Shown here piece after piece: positions 715 through 58,427 of a DNA stretch of 64,000 nucleotides (its first letter is position 1; each line of letters starts with the position of its first letter). The DNA comes from Malacoraja senta. Its lineage: Eukaryota. The notes beneath the pieces were generated by a model. The model saw only the letters and a list, made by a program, of their open reading frames with translations, was not told where the DNA came from and did not search any database. Location of the stretch: positions 25,608,001 to 25,672,000 of the forward strand of contig CM075988.1 of assembly GCA_038087875.1 (NCBI GenBank), in the 5' to 3' direction. Position numbers and translations under genes: made by a program.

Positions 715-946
715 GAAGGAACTGCAGATGCTGGAAAATCGAAGGTACACAAAAATGCTGGAGAAACTCAGCGGGTGCAGCAGCATCTATGGAGCGAAGG
801 AAATAGGTAACGTTTCGGGCCGAAACCCTTCTTCAGACTCAAACTCCAGAGTGTTGAAGAAGGGTTTCGGCCCGAAACGTTACCTATTTCCTTCGCTCCA
901 TAGATGCTGCTGCACCCGCTGAGTTTCTCCAGCATTTTTGTGTACC
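715..946. mobile_element. Palindromic Penelope-derived pLTR pair (family A) with 16-bp TSD
   Basis: Inverted arms about 744-838 and 854-946; TSD ttcagagagtgttaaa at 699-714 and 947-962. Confidence 0.85.
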
Positions 947-9503: not shown

Positions 9504-9703
9504 NNNNNNNNNNNNNNNNNNNNNNNNNNNNNNNNNNNNNNNNNNNNNNNNNNNNNNNNNNNNNNNNNNNNNNNNNNNNNNNNNNNNNNNNNNNNNNNNN
9601 NNNNNNNNNNNNNNNNNNNNNNNNNNNNNNNNNNNNNNNNNNNNNNNNNNNNNNNNNNNNNNNNNNNNNNNNNNNNNNNNNNNNNNNNNNNNNNNNNNNN
9701 NNN
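9504..9703. other. Assembly gap (200 N)
   Basis: Run of N. Confidence 0.99.
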
Positions 9704-16690: not shown

Positions 16691-16820
16691 TCAGAAGAAG
16701 GGTTTCGGCCCGAAACGTTGCCTATTTCCTTCGCTCCATAGATGCTGCTGCACCCGCTGAGTTTCTCCAGCAATTTTGTCTACCTTCGATTCTCCAGCAT
16801 CTGTAGTTCCTTCTTGAACA
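16691..16820 (+). mobile_element. Penelope-like pLTR (family A) with 3' tail
   Basis: gaagaagggtttcggcccgaaacgttgcc...gtctaccttcgattctccagcatctgtagttccttctt. Confidence 0.8.
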
Positions 16821-18094: not shown

Positions 18095-18602
18095 TTTTAG
18101 TTTGGAGATACAGAGTGGAAACAGGCGCTTCGGCCCACCAAGTCCGCACCAACCAGCGATCCCCACACATCAACACTATCCTACACACACTCCAGACAAT
18201 TTGCAATTTTACCAAGCCAACTAGTCTAACTAGCCAACTAGTCTGAAGAAGGGTTTCGGCCCGAAACGTTGCCTATTTCCTTCGCTCCATAGATGCTGCT
18301 GCACCCGCTGAGTTTCTCCAGCAATTTTGTCTACCTTCGATTTTCCAGCATCTGCAGTTCCTTGTTGAACATAGCCTATAAACCTGTACGTCTTTGGAGT
18401 GTGGGAGGCGGTGCTGGCTCGAAGGGCCGAATAGCCTACTCCTGCACCTATTGTCTATTGACACCGGAGCATCCGGAGAAAACCCACGCGGTCACAGGGA
18501 GAACATACAAACTCCGTTCAGACAGCGCCCGTAGTTAGGATAAAGCCCGGCTCCCTGACACTGAAAGGCAGCAACTCTACCGCTGCGCCACCATGCTGCC
18601 CT
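18095..18602 (-). mobile_element. HE1-type SINE with nested pLTR (18240-18370) and CR1 tail (18407-18460)
   Basis: SINE segments are collinear around the two inserts. Confidence 0.8.
18240..18274 (+). ncRNA. Minimal type-I hammerhead ribozyme core (family A, intact)
   Basis: CUGAAGA-A-GGGU(UUCG)GCCC-GAAAC-GUU; activity not shown. Confidence 0.65.
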
Positions 18603-31822: not shown

Positions 31823-32264
31823 TTCAAGGGGTCTCGACCGGAAACACCGCCCATTCTTTCTCTCCAGAGACCCTGCCTGTCCCGCTGAGTTACTCCAGCT
31901 TTTTGTATCTATCTTTAGTTTTGACATCACACCAGGTGCTGGTTAGTGTATAAGGTTAGTGTGTGGGGATCACCGGTCGGCGTTGACTCGGTGGGCCGAA
32001 GGGCCTGTTTCCGCGCTGTATCTCCAAACTAATCTAAATGAATAGCTAGCACTAACATCGCTAAGAACAGCGTACCAAAAGGTCCTCATTCACAGAGCCA
32101 GTGTGTGTACTCTGCCGCAGGGCCGCAGGCATGTGCCTTACTCGAGACTGTTAATACATTGCATATGTGGAGAGAATTAACAATCAGATAATCACACCTC
32201 AGTGAGTGAAATTTGTCACCAGTTGTGACAATCAATTAGCACAGATGGAGGTCACAATCCTCTG

Positions 32265-32470
32265 GTACACAAAAATGCTGGAGAAACTCAGCGGGTGCAG
32301 CAGCATCTATGGAGCGAAGGAAATAGGTAACGTTTCGGGCCGAAACCCTTCTTCAGACTGATAGGGGGTGGGGAGAAGAAAGGAAAAAAGGAAAAGGCGG
32401 AGGAGGAGCCCGAGGGCTGGGGGAGGGGAGGAGACAACCAGATGGCTGATGAAGGGGAGGGGACGTGATC
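32265..32470 (-). mobile_element. Penelope-like 3' end (pLTR plus pyrimidine-rich UTR) with 14-bp TSD
   Basis: TSD gtcacaatcctctg at 32251-32264 and 32471-32484; same UTR as 53155-53494. Confidence 0.85.
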
Positions 32471-33430
32471 GTCACAATCCTCTGCTTGGTTTCTGTTAGC
32501 AGGTTATTAAATAATCAAAAGCGCTGCTCTCAGCTGATGTTCAAGAAGCAACTGCAGATGCTGGAAAAATCTAAGGTAGACAAAAATGCTGGAGAAACTC
32601 AGCGGGTGAGGCAGCATCTATGGAGGTGATGTTTCGGGTTGAGACCCTGAGGGTCTCATCCGCTGAGTTTCTCCAGCATTTTTGTCTACCTCCGACCTGC
32701 TGTGGTCATTTGTTTAGTTTAACAGCTGGAATACTGGGGCAGGTTAGTGGTCTTTTCAATGGATGGGTGTAAGCTGAAGAATGACATCCTGTTTGACCCA
32801 CACTCCAAAGACGTACAGGTTCGTAGGTTAATTGGCTTGGTGTAAGTGTAAAACAGTCCCGAGTGTGTGTAGGGTAGTGGGAATGTGTGGGGATCGCTGG
32901 TCGTTGCAGACTCGGTGGGTCGAATGGCCTGTTTTCACACTGTATCTCTAAACCAAACTAAGCTAAAAACTATCTAAAAGCCTCTTAAACACGACTATCG
33001 TATCTGTGTAAAAAAATAATTACACCTCACATCACCTTTGAACTTTGTCAATCTCAATTTAAAGTTGAGCCCTCTAGTGATTGATGTCTCTATCGGGTAG
33101 TTCTTTTCTCCTTTCTAGAGTACACAGCCTCAGACAATTCAGATGTTCCTAACTTCTGATAAAATAGCAACTATTTTTACTGTTCCTCTAATTTATAGGC
33201 TTCAACATCAGTGGAAGTTTACCTGCCATATCATCCTGTTTCCTCCCCACCTTACCCTGCCCTGGGCCATCAGTGGGCCTTGAGGCTTTGCTGATGTTAG
33301 TTATGTCCCTATGGGAAGGGTTGGGGAAACACACATCCTGGCCTCTCTATTTTAAACTTCCTGTGAGGCTCCGATGTATAAAAATATCCATTCTTCCCCT
33401 ACTGGCTGCATCGACTAACGAAGAAGCGTA

Positions 33431-47969: not shown

Positions 47970-48169
47970 NNNNNNNNNNNNNNNNNNNNNNNNNNNNNNN
48001 NNNNNNNNNNNNNNNNNNNNNNNNNNNNNNNNNNNNNNNNNNNNNNNNNNNNNNNNNNNNNNNNNNNNNNNNNNNNNNNNNNNNNNNNNNNNNNNNNNNN
48101 NNNNNNNNNNNNNNNNNNNNNNNNNNNNNNNNNNNNNNNNNNNNNNNNNNNNNNNNNNNNNNNNNNNNN
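47970..48169. other. Assembly gap (200 N)
   Basis: Run of N. Confidence 0.99.
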
Positions 48170-49512: not shown

Positions 49513-49894
49513 TGTAGAGACAAAGAATTGCAGACACTGGTTAATATACAAAAGGACACAGAGTGCTGGAGGAACTCAGCGGGTCAGGCAGCATCTGTGG
49601 AGAACATGGATAGGTGACGTTTCACAGAGTGCTGGAGTAACCCAGCGGGTCAGGCAGCATCTGTGGAGCGAAGGAAATGGGCAACCTTTCGGGCCGAAAC
49701 CCTGAAGGAAATAGGCAACGTTTCGGGCCGAAACCCGGAAGGGTTTCGGGCCGAAACGTTGCCTATTTCCTTCGCTCCATAGATGCTGCCGGAACATGGA
49801 TAGGTGACGTTTCACAGAGTGCTGGAGGAACTCAGCGGGTCAGGCAGCATCTGTGGAGAACATGGATAGGTGACGTTTCTGGTCGTCTCAACTT
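49513..49894 (-). mobile_element. Tandem pLTR-derived array with 13-bp TSD
   Basis: Three units of about 65 nt; TSD gagtcagtaacta at 49500-49512 and 49895-49907. Confidence 0.8.
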
Positions 49895-50125
49895 GAGTCA
49901 GTAACTAATCTTTTGCACGTTTTTCCAATACTGATCCCTCAGACTGTCCAAACCCGACCTCCTGTTGCGGAGGGAATGGTCCTTCAGCTGCCAGGGCCCG
50001 CAGTCCGAGATTCCTTGCGAGCCTTCAGAATGATCAAACCAACTTTGACCAAGCTTGTCTTGTTGCACTATCTAATGGAAACCATGGTGGATTAGAGGTC
50101 AGATGTTGTCACAATGTTGTTGACC

Positions 50126-52728: not shown

Positions 52729-53154
52729 TCTTCACTGTGGTGGAAGGCAACAAAGTTCAGCCAGTCCCCCTCCTTTTGGTTCAGAATTGACTTGCTACTG
52801 TTTCAAGTATCTGATAGCCTTGTATTTACAGACCCAAGTGCCTGAGATAATGCAGCATAGTTATATAATCACCAGGTAATGGAGGTGAGCTGGATTGAGT
52901 GTGAGCCTGAGACAACAAGGTTTCAAGTTGCCCTCCACGGTAAACTGTTGCCAAATGTACAAGCTATTGAGAAGAATGAAACTGGATGAACTAGAAGTTA
53001 GACTTATCCTCGAGAACTGAGGGACTGCTGTGTGCTCTGTTTCACAGAGACATGGCTCACTCAGAGAGTCATAGAGTCCTACAGATTCCTTCAGCCCAAC
53101 TTGTCCAAGCTGACCGACATGACCCAGTGTGTGAGCAGTTGACATCATTGCTAG

Positions 53155-53494
53155 GCGGACAAAAGTGCTGGAGAAACTCAGCGGGTGCAGCAGCATCTAT
53201 GGAGCGAAGGAAATAGGCAACGTTTCGGGCCAAAACCCTTCTTCAGACTGATGTGGGGTGTGGGGGGTGTGGGGGGGGGGAGAAGAAAGGAGAAAGGAAG
53301 AGGAGGAGCCCGAGGGCTGAGGGAGAGCTGAGAAGGGGAGGGGACAGCAAGGGATTGGAGATACCAGAAATTGGAGAAGTCAATGTTTATGCCGCTAGGG
53401 TGCAGACTCCCCAAGCGGAATATGAGGTGCTGCTCCTCCAATTTTCCGGTGGTGCTCACTCTGGCCATGGAGGAGGCCCAGGACAGAGAGGTCT
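53155..53494 (-). mobile_element. Penelope-like element 3' end: GIY-YIG C-terminal remnant, UTR and pLTR with hammerhead
   Basis: DLSVLGLLHGQSEHHRK/LEEQHLIFRLGSLHPSGINIDFSNF (one frameshift) matches the E..(W/L)I..L..L.P.G.N motif of PLE endonucleases; 16-bp TSD ttgacatcattgctag (53139-53154, 53495-53510). Confidence 0.88.
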
Positions 53495-54260: not shown

Positions 54261-54645
54261 TTCATTATAGTTGACCAGGAGTCCTGCGATGTCAGAGATG
54301 CCGTCTTTTGGACAAGACCCTATACTGAAGATGGGGATGCCCTTTCAGATAGATGTAAGATGTACCCATGGCTATTCAGATAATAGCAAGCTTGTTCAAT
54401 CTCGTATACTGGCCAATACTTTGCCCTCAGCCACCATTGGTGAATTATATTCTTGCGTCAATCATGCATGGATGTCTGTGGGACGTGGCTGTGGGGACAT
54501 TAGCTGCTCCATCTCCAACTCTACACCAGAGGGGATGGTCTAGCAAGTCTGGAGGCTACGCAAAATGATAGATCAATGAAAGTCTTTCTTCCATCTTGTG
54601 CAACTGATCTTTTCCAAGGATGAGAAGAAATGTATTTTGCCAGAG

Positions 54646-54967
54646 AGCGGCACGGTGGCACAGCGGTAGAGTTGCTGTATCAAAGCGCTTGCAGCACCAG
54701 AGACCCGGGTTCGATCCCAACGACGGGCGCTGTCTGTACGGAGTTTGCACGTTCTCCCCGTGACCTGCATGGATTTTCTCCGATATCTTCAGTTTCCACC
54801 CACACTCCAAAGACGTACAGGTTTGTAGGTTAATCGGCTTGGTACATGTAGAAATTGTCCCTGGTGTGTGTAGGATAGTGTTAATGTGCGGGGATTGCTG
54901 GTCGGTGCGGACCCGGTTGGCCGAAGGGCCTGTTTCCGCGCTGTATCTCTAAAATTAAACTAAACTG
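54646..54967 (+). mobile_element. Full-length HE1-type SINE
   Basis: gcggcacggtggcacagcggtagag...ggttcgatcc...ctgtatctctaaaattaaactaa. Confidence 0.88.
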
Positions 54968-55237
54968 AGAGGGTGGGGCGAATCTTTGGAATTAATTGCC
55001 ACTGACGGCCGTAGCTCTAGGCCAAGTCATTGTGTATTTTTAAAGCAGAGATTGATCAGTTCTTGATTAGCAAGAGCATCAACGGATACGGGGAGATGGC
55101 CGGAGAATGGGGTTGAGAGGGAAAAATAGATCAGCCATGATCAAATGGTGGAGCAGGCACAATGGGCCGAATGGCCTTATTCTGTTCCTGTGTCTCATGA
55201 TCTTATTCTCACCAGGAGACGACCCACAGATGTCAGA

Positions 55238-55405
55238 GGTAGACAAAAGAGCTGAGAAACTCAGCGGGTGCAGCAGCATCTATGGAGCGAAGGAAATAGG
55301 CAACGTTTCAGGTTGAAGAAGGGTTTCAACCCGAAACGTTGCCCATTTCCTTCGCTCCATAGATGCTGCCTCACCCGCTGAGTTTCTCCAGCATTTTTGT
55401 CTACC
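55238..55405. mobile_element. Palindromic pLTR pair (family A)
   Basis: ggtagacaaaa...ttttgtctacc. Confidence 0.85.
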
Positions 55406-55683
55406 CTATATATATCTATTACTTTCTTTGCTTCATTTTATTTGACATGGAAGATTTTGCAACCTTCCCCCTCTGATATTGGCCAATTTACTGTCAAATA
55501 CTGGAAGAAGAGGTCAAGTCAAAGTCAAGGGTGTGTATTAGTCATATCCATGGACCAGACCAATGGAATTCTTACTGGCTGCAGCTTCACAGACGCATTA
55601 GATGCAAACAACAATAAACGTGCCATAAATGATCAATTATTCTAAGTACGCTAGACCATGTTGGCGCAAAAACCAAAGAGCGT

Positions 55684-55923
55684 AAAGGGCCTGTCCCACT
55701 TACATGTCCTTGGCATGCAAATTACGCTACCTCGTGGTCGCGTTGAGCCGCGACGGTCCCGCGATGGTCACGCGCGATTACATGCGTACGCACAGCCGTC
55801 TGGAGCACGTGACGTCATTTGTGGGACCGGCCCCGCGCGGCCACACGATGCCCGTGCGTCTCAACGCGACCACGAGGTCGTGTACTTTGCGTGCCAAGGA
55901 CACGTAAGTGGGGCAGGCCCTTT
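55684..55923. mobile_element. Near-fully palindromic MITE (Harbinger-like)
   Basis: aaagggcctgtcccacttacatgtccttggca / tgccaaggacacgtaagtggggcaggcccttt. Confidence 0.8.
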
Positions 55924-56447
55924 AAAAACCAAAGTCCATGGTGGTTTGATGTGAAGGTTGGGTTGTGGGGTGGGTTGTACGGGATGGTTCAGGAACCTGA
56001 TGCTGATGGGAAGAAGCTATTCTTGAACTTGGGAATAGTTGTTCTCAGGCTCCTGCACCTTCTTCTCAAAGGTAGTAATGAGAAAAGAGTGGAGCCAGCG
56101 TGGTCTGGTATTTGATGATATTGACCACCTTCTTCATGTTCATGAGTGAGTGGAGCAGAATTAGGCCATTCGTCCCATCAAGTCTACATTCAATCATGGC
56201 TGATCATACATGATACTCGGCAGGTCAAGAAGAATATACAGAGAGAGAAACAGTTAAGATGTTTTTTTCCATCAGGACCAGGAAAACCTAAAACCATAAA
56301 CGTGGATTAGAGATGGGAGAACAAAGGATATGTCTGTGTAAAAGACCATGATGGAAATAGTGGTAACGTCAGTGAAAGATGGTCAATGTTTGTTAACTGC
56401 AAATGATCCACCTGGAGGAGATGAAACTAGGAGGAGAAAAATGGCAG

Positions 56448-56678
56448 GTAGACAAAAGTGCTGGAGAAACTCAGCGGGTGCAGCAGCATCTATGGAGCGA
56501 AGGAAATAGGCAACGTTTCGGGCCGAAACCCATCTTCAGGCATCAGTCAGACTGAAGAAGGGTTTCGGCCCGAAACGTTGCCTATTTCCTTCGCTCCATA
56601 GATGCTGCTGCACCCGCTGACTTTCTCCAGCACTTTTGTCTACCTTCGATTTTTCCAGCATCTGCAGTTCCTTCTTAA
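56448..56678. mobile_element. Palindromic pLTR pair (family A) with tail
   Basis: Intact + core at 56552-56579; ends gttccttcttaa. Confidence 0.85.
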
Positions 56679-57261
56679 CCACAGATGTCAGAACCTGGTT
56701 CAACTTGTGCAAGGGGAGTGAGCAGCCTATTTATTCTCTTCTCATATTTCATATTTGGCAGCACCTTCTCCTCAGGCGAGGATGTGGAAAGGCAAATCCA
56801 TCGTTGTCCAAATGTGTGGGTTTCTCAACCCCGTTGATGCATGAGTGCCCCCACACCATCCGACCCAGGATGATATCCGGAGCAAAGGCTATAAACGACC
56901 CTTTAAAAAAATTGTCGGAGTTTTAAAGGATGTTGTTTTCAAGAGGAAGGAGGTGGGAATGGAGGGTTGGAGAGGGGAGAAACACATGATGAATGGGAGT
57001 AGTCTGTGTCAGGGCTAAATGTAGTCACTCCACTAATTCATGGGTTGAGCAAACCAGTGCAGTCTGGCTGTGGTGAGCGGCTCCAGTTTGCAACGAGCAA
57101 TATTCTACACAGACACATGGCTCCAGGCCCAGGCAAGTCGTAGGTTCTGCCACATCAAGAGGCAAGAGCATTTCATTGTTATACGTCGCAGACAGAACAA
57201 TGAGATTCTTACATGCACCAGCACATCAGAAGATGTAAACAGTACTCTATAAAGAATATCA

Positions 57262-58427
<1,166 letters not shown>

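What the first reader, a model, noticed from the sequence alone, without database searches (positions are those of the whole stretch)
55224..56692. Candidate composite insertion: two pLTR palindromes bracket about 1 kb of cargo inside one 14-bp TSD
Seen: ccacagatgtcaga lies immediately left of palindrome 1 (55224-55237) and immediately right of palindrome 2 (56679-56692). I found no TSD at the inner flank of either palindrome. The outer ends (ggtagac... and ...cttcttaa) match the two ends of ordinary single insertions. The cargo (55406-56447) holds a MITE, old repeat fragments and unique-looking DNA. Inference: one PLE-mediated event inserted or transduced the whole 1.44 kb, like a compound transposon, or a pLTR-containing circle integrated by recombination.
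Basis: partly seen in the sequence, partly recalled or inferred. Interest (0 to 1): 0.75.

Follow-up and report, generated by a model that had tools for sequence, protein, structure and literature searches.

The report
Penelope repeats carrying host DNA
A 1-kb piece of ordinary non-coding host DNA sits between two fold-back ends of a Penelope-like retrotransposon inside one target-site duplication, so it was most likely moved here by or into this element, a kind of event already known from a rotifer.

Summary
CCACAGATGTCAGA abuts both outer ends (55224-55237, 56679-56692). Of 197 end pairs tested it is the only long-range match, and the inner flanks have no partner among 45 ends. The palindromes are head-to-head 3' ends (pLTR arms) of a Penelope-like element (PLE). 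A neighbouring copy carries the ORF end, whose relatives show RT and GIY-YIG motifs. The layout is TSD, inverted arm, arm, 1,041-bp non-coding cargo, inverted arm, arm, 34-nt tail, TSD. This is the architecture published for Adineta vaga, where pLTRs moved a host gene, plus one extra inverted arm. Palindrome 1 is a tail-less hybrid; palindrome 2 is internally uniform. Most likely (0.40) one PLE insertion copied a read-through RNA. Rivals: later recombination into an existing palindrome (0.27), DNA-templated capture during insertion (0.22), mis-assembly (0.05). Contigs of two other organisms carry the tail-TSD-flank junction at about 7% divergence, so that end is old. No empty allele and no donor copy were seen, and no contig spans the unit. 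'Compound transposon' is the wrong analogy. It is a modest variant of a known process with no gene in the cargo.

The parts
55224..55237 (+). Left copy of the 14-nt target-site duplication
55238..55317 (-). Palindrome 1 left arm: inverted, tail-less pLTR 3' end. Matches the palindrome 2 arms at two distal diagnostic sites and its own partner at the proximal site
   Evidence: (I4)
55314..55405 (+). Palindrome 1 right arm: sense, tail-less pLTR 3' end of a different sub-type. Overlaps the left arm by 4 nt. First base of the hammerhead core is missing
55406..56446 (.). Cargo: 1,041 bp host DNA, 46% GC, longest stop-free stretch 100 codons, no second copy in the window outside its internal repeats
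   Evidence: Pieces are present in contigs of organisms E and B
55683..55924 (.). MITE inside the cargo: 69-nt terminal inverted repeats, TA on both sides, high copy
   Evidence: (I3), table 2
56133..56205 (-). Old LINE 3'-end fragment inside the cargo (CR1-like, name recalled), 71-87% like 14 other places in the window
   Evidence: (I6, I7)
56436..56446 (-). Last 11 nt of the cargo, 9 of 11 like the start of the tail: partial tail or imperfect priming site
   Evidence: (I1)
56447..56539 (-). Palindrome 2 left arm: inverted pLTR 3' end, 2 differences in 93 nt from the right arm
56540..56546 (.). Centre filler of palindrome 2, partly like the native sequence just upstream of the arm in copy e10
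56547..56644 (+). Palindrome 2 right arm: sense pLTR 3' end with a minimal hammerhead core at 56552-56579
   Evidence: Motif features from PMC4209133
56645..56678 (+). 34-nt PLE tail
   Evidence: An optional 30-40-nt tail is described in PMC11167929 and PMC8557442
56679..56692 (+). Right copy of the 14-nt target-site duplication
   Evidence: Tail plus this flank lie in one contig each of organisms B and F
53154..53494 (-). Context, not part of the unit: 5'-truncated copy e10 with the ORF's C-terminus, UTR and a tail-less arm inside its own 16-nt TSD. It identifies the family

Best explanation
One Penelope-like (PLE) insertion event delivered the whole 1,441 bp, with the host DNA copied from a read-through RNA. 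At a donor locus a tail-less sense pLTR arm (now 55314-55405) lay about 1 kb upstream of an ordinary fold-back copy with a tail (now 56447-56678). A transcript ran from the first arm through the host DNA to the tail. An autonomous PLE protein acting in trans made a 14-nt staggered cut here. It primed the bottom strand at the tail-end start site and copied the RNA back to its 5' end. It primed the top strand at the tail-less start site, which gave the inverted arm 55238-55317. The two cDNA ends joined over a 4-nt overlap, and fill-in made the TSD. Shown: the anatomy, the single TSD, the family identity, and that both kinds of end act as 3' insertion ends in this family. Inferred: the donor, the transcript, trans-action and the order of steps. 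The cargo has no evident function.
For: (1) A single TSD of family-typical length. 6 of 10 other young copies have exact TSDs of 11-18 nt, and one more has 14 nt with one mismatch. (2) Tail-less arm ends are genuine 3' ends: e7 and e10 end there inside 14- and 16-nt TSDs. This fits the two RT start sites and the cutting and extension of both strands shown in vitro for an anole PLE (PMC11167929). (3) The order inverted pLTR, pLTR, body, pLTR, tail, TSD is the standard PLE layout and that of the Adineta NRPS capture (PMC3846280). (4) Partner arms agree at every scoreable diagnostic site in e1, e2, e5 (3 of 3 each), e8 (2 of 2), e9 (1 of 1) and palindrome 2 (3 of 3). Palindrome 1 agrees at only 1 of 3. 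Its left arm shares sites 2 and 3 with both palindrome 2 arms, a combination found in 1 of the 10 other copies. That is expected if the left arm was copied from the same source as palindrome 2. (5) Donors are plentiful: about one young copy per 5.3 kb, and a 0.20 chance of another within 1.2 kb.
Against: (1) A copying route leaves a donor. At the cargo positions listed (55471 and 56297 in X19; 55471, 56099 and 56297 in X2) all depth comes from one contig, and the X19 contig over 55386-55635 has 0 differences. This is weak, because contigs show presence and not absence and 88% of X19 was read, but it goes against my reading. (2) At the proximal diagnostic site the left arm matches its partner, not palindrome 2, as recombination or strand invasion would predict. 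(3) The three sites give 7 haplotypes with all four site1/site3 combinations, so recurrent mutation or conversion weakens any haplotype argument. (4) RT would have to pass a 93-bp near-perfect RNA hairpin (-188 kcal/mol for palindrome 2). (5) No empty allele was seen, and no contig spans the unit or meets the 31-letter bridging rule at any junction. (6) No transcript was tested.
Confidence: 0.4

Rival explanations
1. Secondary entry. An ordinary single fold-back copy with its 14-nt TSD was here first. Later, ectopic recombination, repair of a hairpin break or integration of an excised arm-cargo circle put the cargo and two foreign arms into it. The outer arms, tail and TSD are the original insertion.
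For: Predicts the same outer ends and TSD and a hybrid palindrome 1. The left arm switches from palindrome-2 type (sites 2, 3) to partner type (site 1), like a crossover within the arm. Homologous arms are dense. TSD-less copies e4 and e8 show that such rearrangements occur. The tail-TSD-flank junction is shared with organisms B and F.
Against: Needs the incoming arm at 56447-56539 to be of the same sub-type as the resident one (2 differences in 93 nt; that type is in 1 of 10 other copies) unless it was converted later. No donor scar among 45 ends in the window.
Confidence: 0.27
2. DNA-templated capture during insertion. The top-strand cDNA arm invaded a homologous arm at another locus and was extended through it and about 1 kb of flank. 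It then let go, and its 3' end annealed imperfectly (9 of 11) to the tail of PLE RNA and was re-primed by RT. That gave the second inverted arm, which joined the bottom-strand cDNA.
For: Accounts for all the small features together: three arms of one sub-type, the switch inside the left arm, the foreign right arm, no inner TSD, and the 9-of-11 tail match (0.0023 over 9 ends). The other 8 tail-less ends are also slightly tail-like (33 of 88 against 25.7%, p 0.01). L1 gives a precedent for templated insertions and homology-driven recombination of cDNA intermediates.
Against: More steps. The L1 templated insertions cited are typically under 250 bp and local. I found no PLE precedent in my searches. 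It also predicts a surviving donor, and none was seen (weak).
Confidence: 0.22
3. Mis-assembly. The assembler detoured through the two palindromes and spliced a single-copy stretch from another locus into an ordinary single insertion.
For: No contig spans the unit, and the cargo looks single-copy in X19 and X2. Both switches would fall inside high-copy palindromes. The window has two 200-N gaps.
Against: Needs two mis-joins and a chance match of arm sub-types. The same contig carries a 1.15-kb imperfect TG array, which suggests long reads (inference). Same-organism contigs run from the cargo 20-23 nt into both inner arms and are nearly identical, although that does not test linkage.
Confidence: 0.05
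4. The cargo is native here. The two palindromes inserted independently without TSDs, and the 14-mer is chance or a local templated copy.
For: 2 of 10 other young copies have no TSD and one has only 8 nt. Templated fillers occur at family junctions (e1 centre, e4 5' end).
Against: An exact, zero-offset match at both outer ends (4e-9 by chance) and no such match in the other 191 of 197 pairs. Palindrome 1 is a tail-less hybrid unlike any single copy.
Confidence: 0.02

Closest known systems
pLTR-framed host DNA mobilised in trans by Penelope elements in Adineta vaga (Pen3a_Av/NRPS; PMC3846280, parts 1-4 of 5 read; restated in PMC6431247, passages)
   Same: [quoted passage not shown] The paper also mentions a few non-coding cases between solo pLTRs.
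   Different: Here there is a second inverted arm on the 3' side of the cargo. The cargo is 1 kb and non-coding rather than a 4-kb gene. The TSD is 14 rather than 8 nt. The host is a vertebrate with very many such arms. The empty allele was shown there and is not shown here.
Canonical EN+ PLE insertions with inverted 5' pLTR and optional 30-40-nt tail (PMC8557442 passages; PMC11167929 parts 1-2 of 4)
   Same: Head-to-head arms, an optional 34-nt tail, two 3' end positions, a minimal hammerhead motif, a C-terminal GIY-YIG-like ORF end in the neighbouring copy.
   Different: The body is host DNA plus an inverted arm instead of the ORF. The clade was not tested (Neptune-like is recalled only).
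L1 twin priming, templated insertions and recombination between insertion intermediates (10.1101/2024.08.27.596794 and PMC11702581, passages; PMC13526784, abstract)
   Same: Both target ends primed, inverted 5' piece, foreign genomic DNA inside one TSD.
   Different: A different enzyme, with poly(A) priming. The templated pieces cited are usually under 250 bp and near the site. Described in human cells and tumours.
Retrozymes (10.64898/2026.07.22.740005, part 1 of 5 read)
   Same: Non-autonomous, PLE-related, hammerhead-bearing repeats flanking non-coding DNA.
   Different: Animal retrozymes are head-to-tail tandems with a ribozyme in each unit. Here the arms are head-to-head, only palindrome 2 has a complete core, and it is locked in a hairpin.
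Bacterial compound transposons (recalled)
   Same: Two repeats bracket cargo inside one TSD.
   Different: No transposase, no complete element on the left, and the ends are reverse-transcription start sites.

Membership tests
EN+ Penelope-like element (repeat family of the arms) | pLTR follows an ORF ending in a GIY-YIG endonuclease joined to a PLE-type RT | tested here: met
   Copy e10 has an ORF end directly upstream of the arm. The same C-terminal motif is in 9 of 16 phmmer hits (6 seen, 6 aligned). P0017-P0019, found with one of those hits, carry it downstream of YIG-like, DKG and YIDD motifs. Pfam GIY-YIG is weak: E 0.05, below cutoff, in 2 of 3. The link is two-step, and the RT motif reading is partly recalled.
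EN+ Penelope-like element (repeat family of the arms) | Optional 30-40-nt tail and inverted 5' pLTR | tested here: met
   34-nt tail at 56645-56678. Both tailed and tail-less 3' ends carry TSDs.
EN+ Penelope-like element (repeat family of the arms) | Minimal type I hammerhead motif in the pLTR | tested here: inconclusive
   Core boxes, extra base before helix II, G10.1-C11.1 pair and palindromic ACGT are at 56552-56579 (against PMC4209133). Helix I is absent or 2 bp. No Rfam hammerhead among 16 matches. The predicted fold is not a hammerhead. Activity was not tested.
EN+ Penelope-like element (repeat family of the arms) | Clade by RT phylogeny (Penelope/Poseidon, Neptune, Nematis) | not tested
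   No RT-bearing copy in the window. No tree built.
pLTR-mediated trans-mobilisation of host DNA (Adineta type) | Non-element DNA between direct pLTRs with an inverted 5' pLTR, inside one TSD | tested here: met
   one extra inverted arm
pLTR-mediated trans-mobilisation of host DNA (Adineta type) | Empty allele with the TSD sequence present once | tested here: inconclusive
   No such joint among the 15 joints shown; 4,212 were not shown. Organisms B and F carry the tail at this site.
pLTR-mediated trans-mobilisation of host DNA (Adineta type) | Cargo has a donor or paralogue elsewhere | tested here: inconclusive
   None in the window. One contig per listed site in X19 and X2. No genome held.
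pLTR-mediated trans-mobilisation of host DNA (Adineta type) | Whole unit inserted in one RT-dependent event | not testable with these tools
   Needs orthologous alleles and the donor.
Animal non-LTR retrozyme | Head-to-tail tandem units, each with a complete hammerhead | tested here: not met
   No tandem repeat in 55224-56692 among 34 rows. Arms are head-to-head. No complete core in palindrome 1.
Compound (composite) DNA transposon | Two complete transposase-type elements flanking the cargo | tested here: not met
   No ORF of 120 codons or more within the unit. The arms are retroelement 3' ends, and palindrome 1 is incomplete.

The most novel reading that the evidence does not exclude
During insertion a PLE cDNA arm invaded a homologous arm elsewhere, copied about 1 kb of host DNA by DNA synthesis and was then re-primed by the PLE RT on the RNA tail through an imperfect 11-nt match. 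If this recurs among the very many young fold-back copies in this genome, PLEs would be shuffling kilobase pieces of host DNA in a vertebrate without needing those pieces to be transcribed. That would also offer a way to explain how PLEs move intron-containing DNA.
Probability: 0.2. Interest if true: 0.6.

Novelty: new variant of a known kind. Interest (0 to 1): 0.35.

Why it matters
Capture of host DNA between Penelope pLTRs is documented from a rotifer with few copies. I found no vertebrate case in five literature searches (open-licence papers and bioRxiv only). This window has about one young copy per 5 kb, most with clean TSDs and scoreable arm variants. A genome-wide count of such composites and their donors could therefore separate RNA read-through from DNA-level capture, which bears on the open question of how PLEs make inverted pLTRs and keep introns. 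The single case here carries no gene and has no evident function.

Tried and rejected
No genome is held for this window, so no donor search or genome scan was possible. A 27-nt arm pattern gave 0 matches in metagenome contigs and 0 in viral contigs. Laying four runs at 85% likeness swamped the joint and loose-end tables with repeats: 15 of 4,227 joints were shown, so the empty-allele joint was neither seen nor excluded. X21 (organism F) has zero depth at the listed cargo positions 55471, 56099, 56104, 56110, 56297 and 56299 while it covers both flanks. X19 also has zero depth at 56099 and 56104. These are holes, no joining contig was shown, and I do not use them. Rfam gave only below-threshold microRNA-like and other hairpin hits, 16 matches, rejected as an effect of the palindromes. 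The ORF-end peptide found nothing in Pfam, the Atlas or the word-indexed search. 7 of the 16 phmmer hits (P0001-P0006, P0013) score through several weak stretches and were rejected as unrelated. The idea that the 34 nt left of palindrome 2 are a decayed full tail was rejected: beyond the first 11 nt the match is no better than random (2,070 of 4,965 random windows score as well, run with the tail offset by one base). The per-end counts had that same one-base error and were redone; the site-1 column was off by one and was redone. An inferred empty site had no homologue spanning the join in the window. An inversion between two neighbouring copies was rejected on logic, as it would put the tail and an inverted TSD inside. 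Cargo divergence E to B (21 of 444) does not differ from flank divergence (40 of 589; p 0.18). Three look-ups of earlier findings returned nothing.

Full report
Observation. The 14-mer CCACAGATGTCAGA lies at 55224-55237 and 56679-56692. It touches the first base of palindrome 1 and the last base of palindrome 2. These are its only exact copies in the window. I paired every left-facing family end with every right-facing end downstream: 6 of 197 pairs share a word of 9 nt or more, five within single palindromes 124-235 bp long and the sixth this 1,440-bp pair. The chance value is 9e-7 per pair allowing 225 offsets. Neither palindrome alone, nor the cargo, has a flanking repeat of 6 nt or more. 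The inner flanks have no partner among 45 ends in either orientation. The insert is 55238-56678 and the cargo 55406-56446.

What the palindromes are. An arm-plus-tail query hits the window 52 times. Ten other young copies (e1-e10) were examined. Six have exact TSDs of 11-18 nt, e6 has 14 nt with one mismatch, e3 has 8 nt, and e4 and e8 have none. Copy e10 (53154-53494, minus) has an ORF end, a UTR and one arm inside a 16-nt TSD. Its C-terminal peptide matched 16 library proteins, of which 9 share the motif and 7 are unrelated. One hit led to P0017-P0019, which carry YIG-like, DKG and YIDD motifs upstream of the same ending; Pfam GIY-YIG is weak, E 0.05 in 2 of 3. With the optional 34-nt tail and a minimal hammerhead core at 56552-56579 (features from passages of PMC4209133), the family is an endonuclease-bearing Penelope-like element. 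The clade was not tested.

How single palindromes form. PMC11167929 (parts 1-2 of 4 read) shows that a PLE protein cuts and extends both target strands and starts reverse transcription at two sites that bound the tail. In this window both positions act as 3' ends: e7 and e10 end without a tail inside 14- and 16-nt TSDs. I infer that an ordinary palindrome is two short cDNAs, one per strand, joined head to head. The composite has four such ends: two on the target and two on the cargo.

Anatomy of the unit. In order: TSD; inverted arm 55238-55317; sense arm 55314-55405 with no tail; cargo; inverted arm 56447-56539; 7-nt filler; sense arm 56547-56644; tail 56645-56678; TSD. The cargo is 46% GC with no stop-free stretch over 100 codons. 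It holds a MITE (55683-55924) and an old LINE fragment (56133-56205). The palindrome 2 arms differ at 2 of 93 positions and the palindrome 1 arms at 7 of 81. At three diagnostic sites, partner arms agree in e1, e2, e5 and palindrome 2 (3 of 3), e8 (2 of 2) and e9 (1 of 1), but at only 1 of 3 in palindrome 1. Its left arm shares the two distal sites with palindrome 2, a combination found in 1 of 10 other copies, and the proximal site with its own partner. Palindrome 1 is thus a hybrid. The sites give 7 haplotypes with signs of recurrence or conversion, so this evidence is modest. The last 11 nt of the cargo match the tail's start at 9 of 11, against 1-6 of 11 at the other 8 tail-less ends (0.0023 over 9 ends). 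Those 8 ends are also slightly tail-like (33 of 88, p 0.01), which suggests priming helped by imperfect pairing.

Evidence from other genomes. Of 24 runs listed I laid four, all short contigs. X19 (organism E) matches 54480-54672, 55386-55635 and 56676-57207 with 0 differences and 56158-56469 with 2; X20 gives 56158-56467 with 2. These run 20-23 nt into the inner arms. X2 (organism B) and X21 (organism F) each have one contig that starts 24-25 nt inside the tail and runs through the right flank at about 7% divergence (40 of 589, 39 of 533), so the tailed end at this site is older than the split of three organisms. X2 also has three cargo pieces (21 differences in 444), one of which includes the last 14 nt of palindrome 1's right arm. 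None of these meets the tool's 31-letter rule for bridging a junction, and none spans the unit. Against a copying mechanism: at the cargo positions listed, all depth in X19 and X2 comes from one contig, so no donor copy was seen; contigs cannot show absence. Two X2 contigs continue with letters that were not displayed, 104 to the left of 55392 and 21 to the right of 56413. These would probably decide the case. The empty-allele joint was not among the 15 joints shown of 4,227.

Mechanism. I put about 0.9 on a real TSD-bounded unit with foreign host DNA. Within that, the most likely route (0.40) is one PLE insertion that copied a read-through RNA running from a tail-less arm through host DNA to a tailed palindrome, with the outer inverted arm primed from the second target strand. 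This gives the standard PLE layout and explains three arms of one sub-type. It does not explain the proximal site of the left arm or the unseen donor, and it needs RT to pass a 93-bp hairpin. Later recombination into an existing palindrome (0.27) explains the switch within the left arm but needs a matching incoming arm. DNA-templated capture during insertion with re-priming on the tail (0.22) explains all the small features but needs more steps. Mis-assembly (0.05) and independent insertions (0.02) are unlikely.

Comparison with what is known. [quoted passage not shown] PMC6431247 (passages) restates this. PMC8557442 (passages) describes the inverted copy and optional tail as general. For L1, twin priming, templated insertions and recombination of cDNA intermediates are described (10.1101/2024.08.27.596794 and PMC11702581, passages; PMC13526784, abstract). 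It is not a retrozyme (10.64898/2026.07.22.740005, part 1 of 5): there are no head-to-tail units. It is not a compound transposon. It works like the Adineta capture; membership is not proven, because the empty allele, the donor and the one-step origin are untested or inconclusive. Five searches found no vertebrate case or four-arm layout, within a library that lacks most subscription papers.

Verdict. A real and well-bounded structure, a variant of a published PLE behaviour, one case, no gene in the cargo, route unresolved. Interest 0.35.

Noticed in passing
window 53154-53494 (-) and 32264-32470 (-): Two 5'-truncated PLE copies with tail-less 3' ends and 16- and 14-nt TSDs. The first keeps the frameshifted end of the ORF and shares all three arm variants with palindrome 2, 1.7 kb from the unit.
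   Followed up: yes
window 16694-16817 and 18240-18368: Two same-strand tailed arms 1.5 kb apart share a variant seen in no other copy. The second has no TSD and a 13-nt templated duplication at its 5' junction. Possible local clustering of sub-types.
   Followed up: partly
window 32541-32690: Fold-back copy with no TSD and a 12-nt deletion in one arm. Tested as the donor scar: its flanks do not match the cargo ends.
   Followed up: partly
window 55668-55935: The MITE in the cargo has TA on both sides and also an 11-nt direct repeat around it, offset by a few bases on the left.
   Followed up: no
window 49540-49900: Nested and partly duplicated mix of old and young arms, with a 34-nt internal tandem.
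   Followed up: no
window 840-855: The centre filler of copy e1 resembles its own TSD, suggesting a templated patch at the join of the two arms.
   Followed up: no
window, 5' ends of many arms (for example 398, 16694, 18240, 29000, 50126): 5' truncation and fold-back points cluster within a few bases of a 9-nt mini-palindrome at the start of the hammerhead core. It resembles an initiator motif (recalled) and may mark the RNA's 5' end.
   Followed up: no
window 56655-56726: Contigs of organisms B and F appear to have 5 and 4 more letters here than the window (from the end-distance column). If they lie at the tail junction, the TSD was originally longer. Position not shown.
   Followed up: no
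window 57207 onward: The X19 contig that matches 56676-57207 exactly continues with 419 letters not aligned here, just before the TG array at 57273-58425: a polymorphism or an assembly difference.
   Followed up: no
proteins P0010, P0011, P0014, P0015: Predicted proteins (a GPCR, a VKOR-like, an ATP synthase c-like and another) include this PLE ORF end as a spurious or exonised piece.
   Followed up: no
window 9504-9703 and 47970-48169: Two assembly gaps of exactly 200 N.
   Followed up: no
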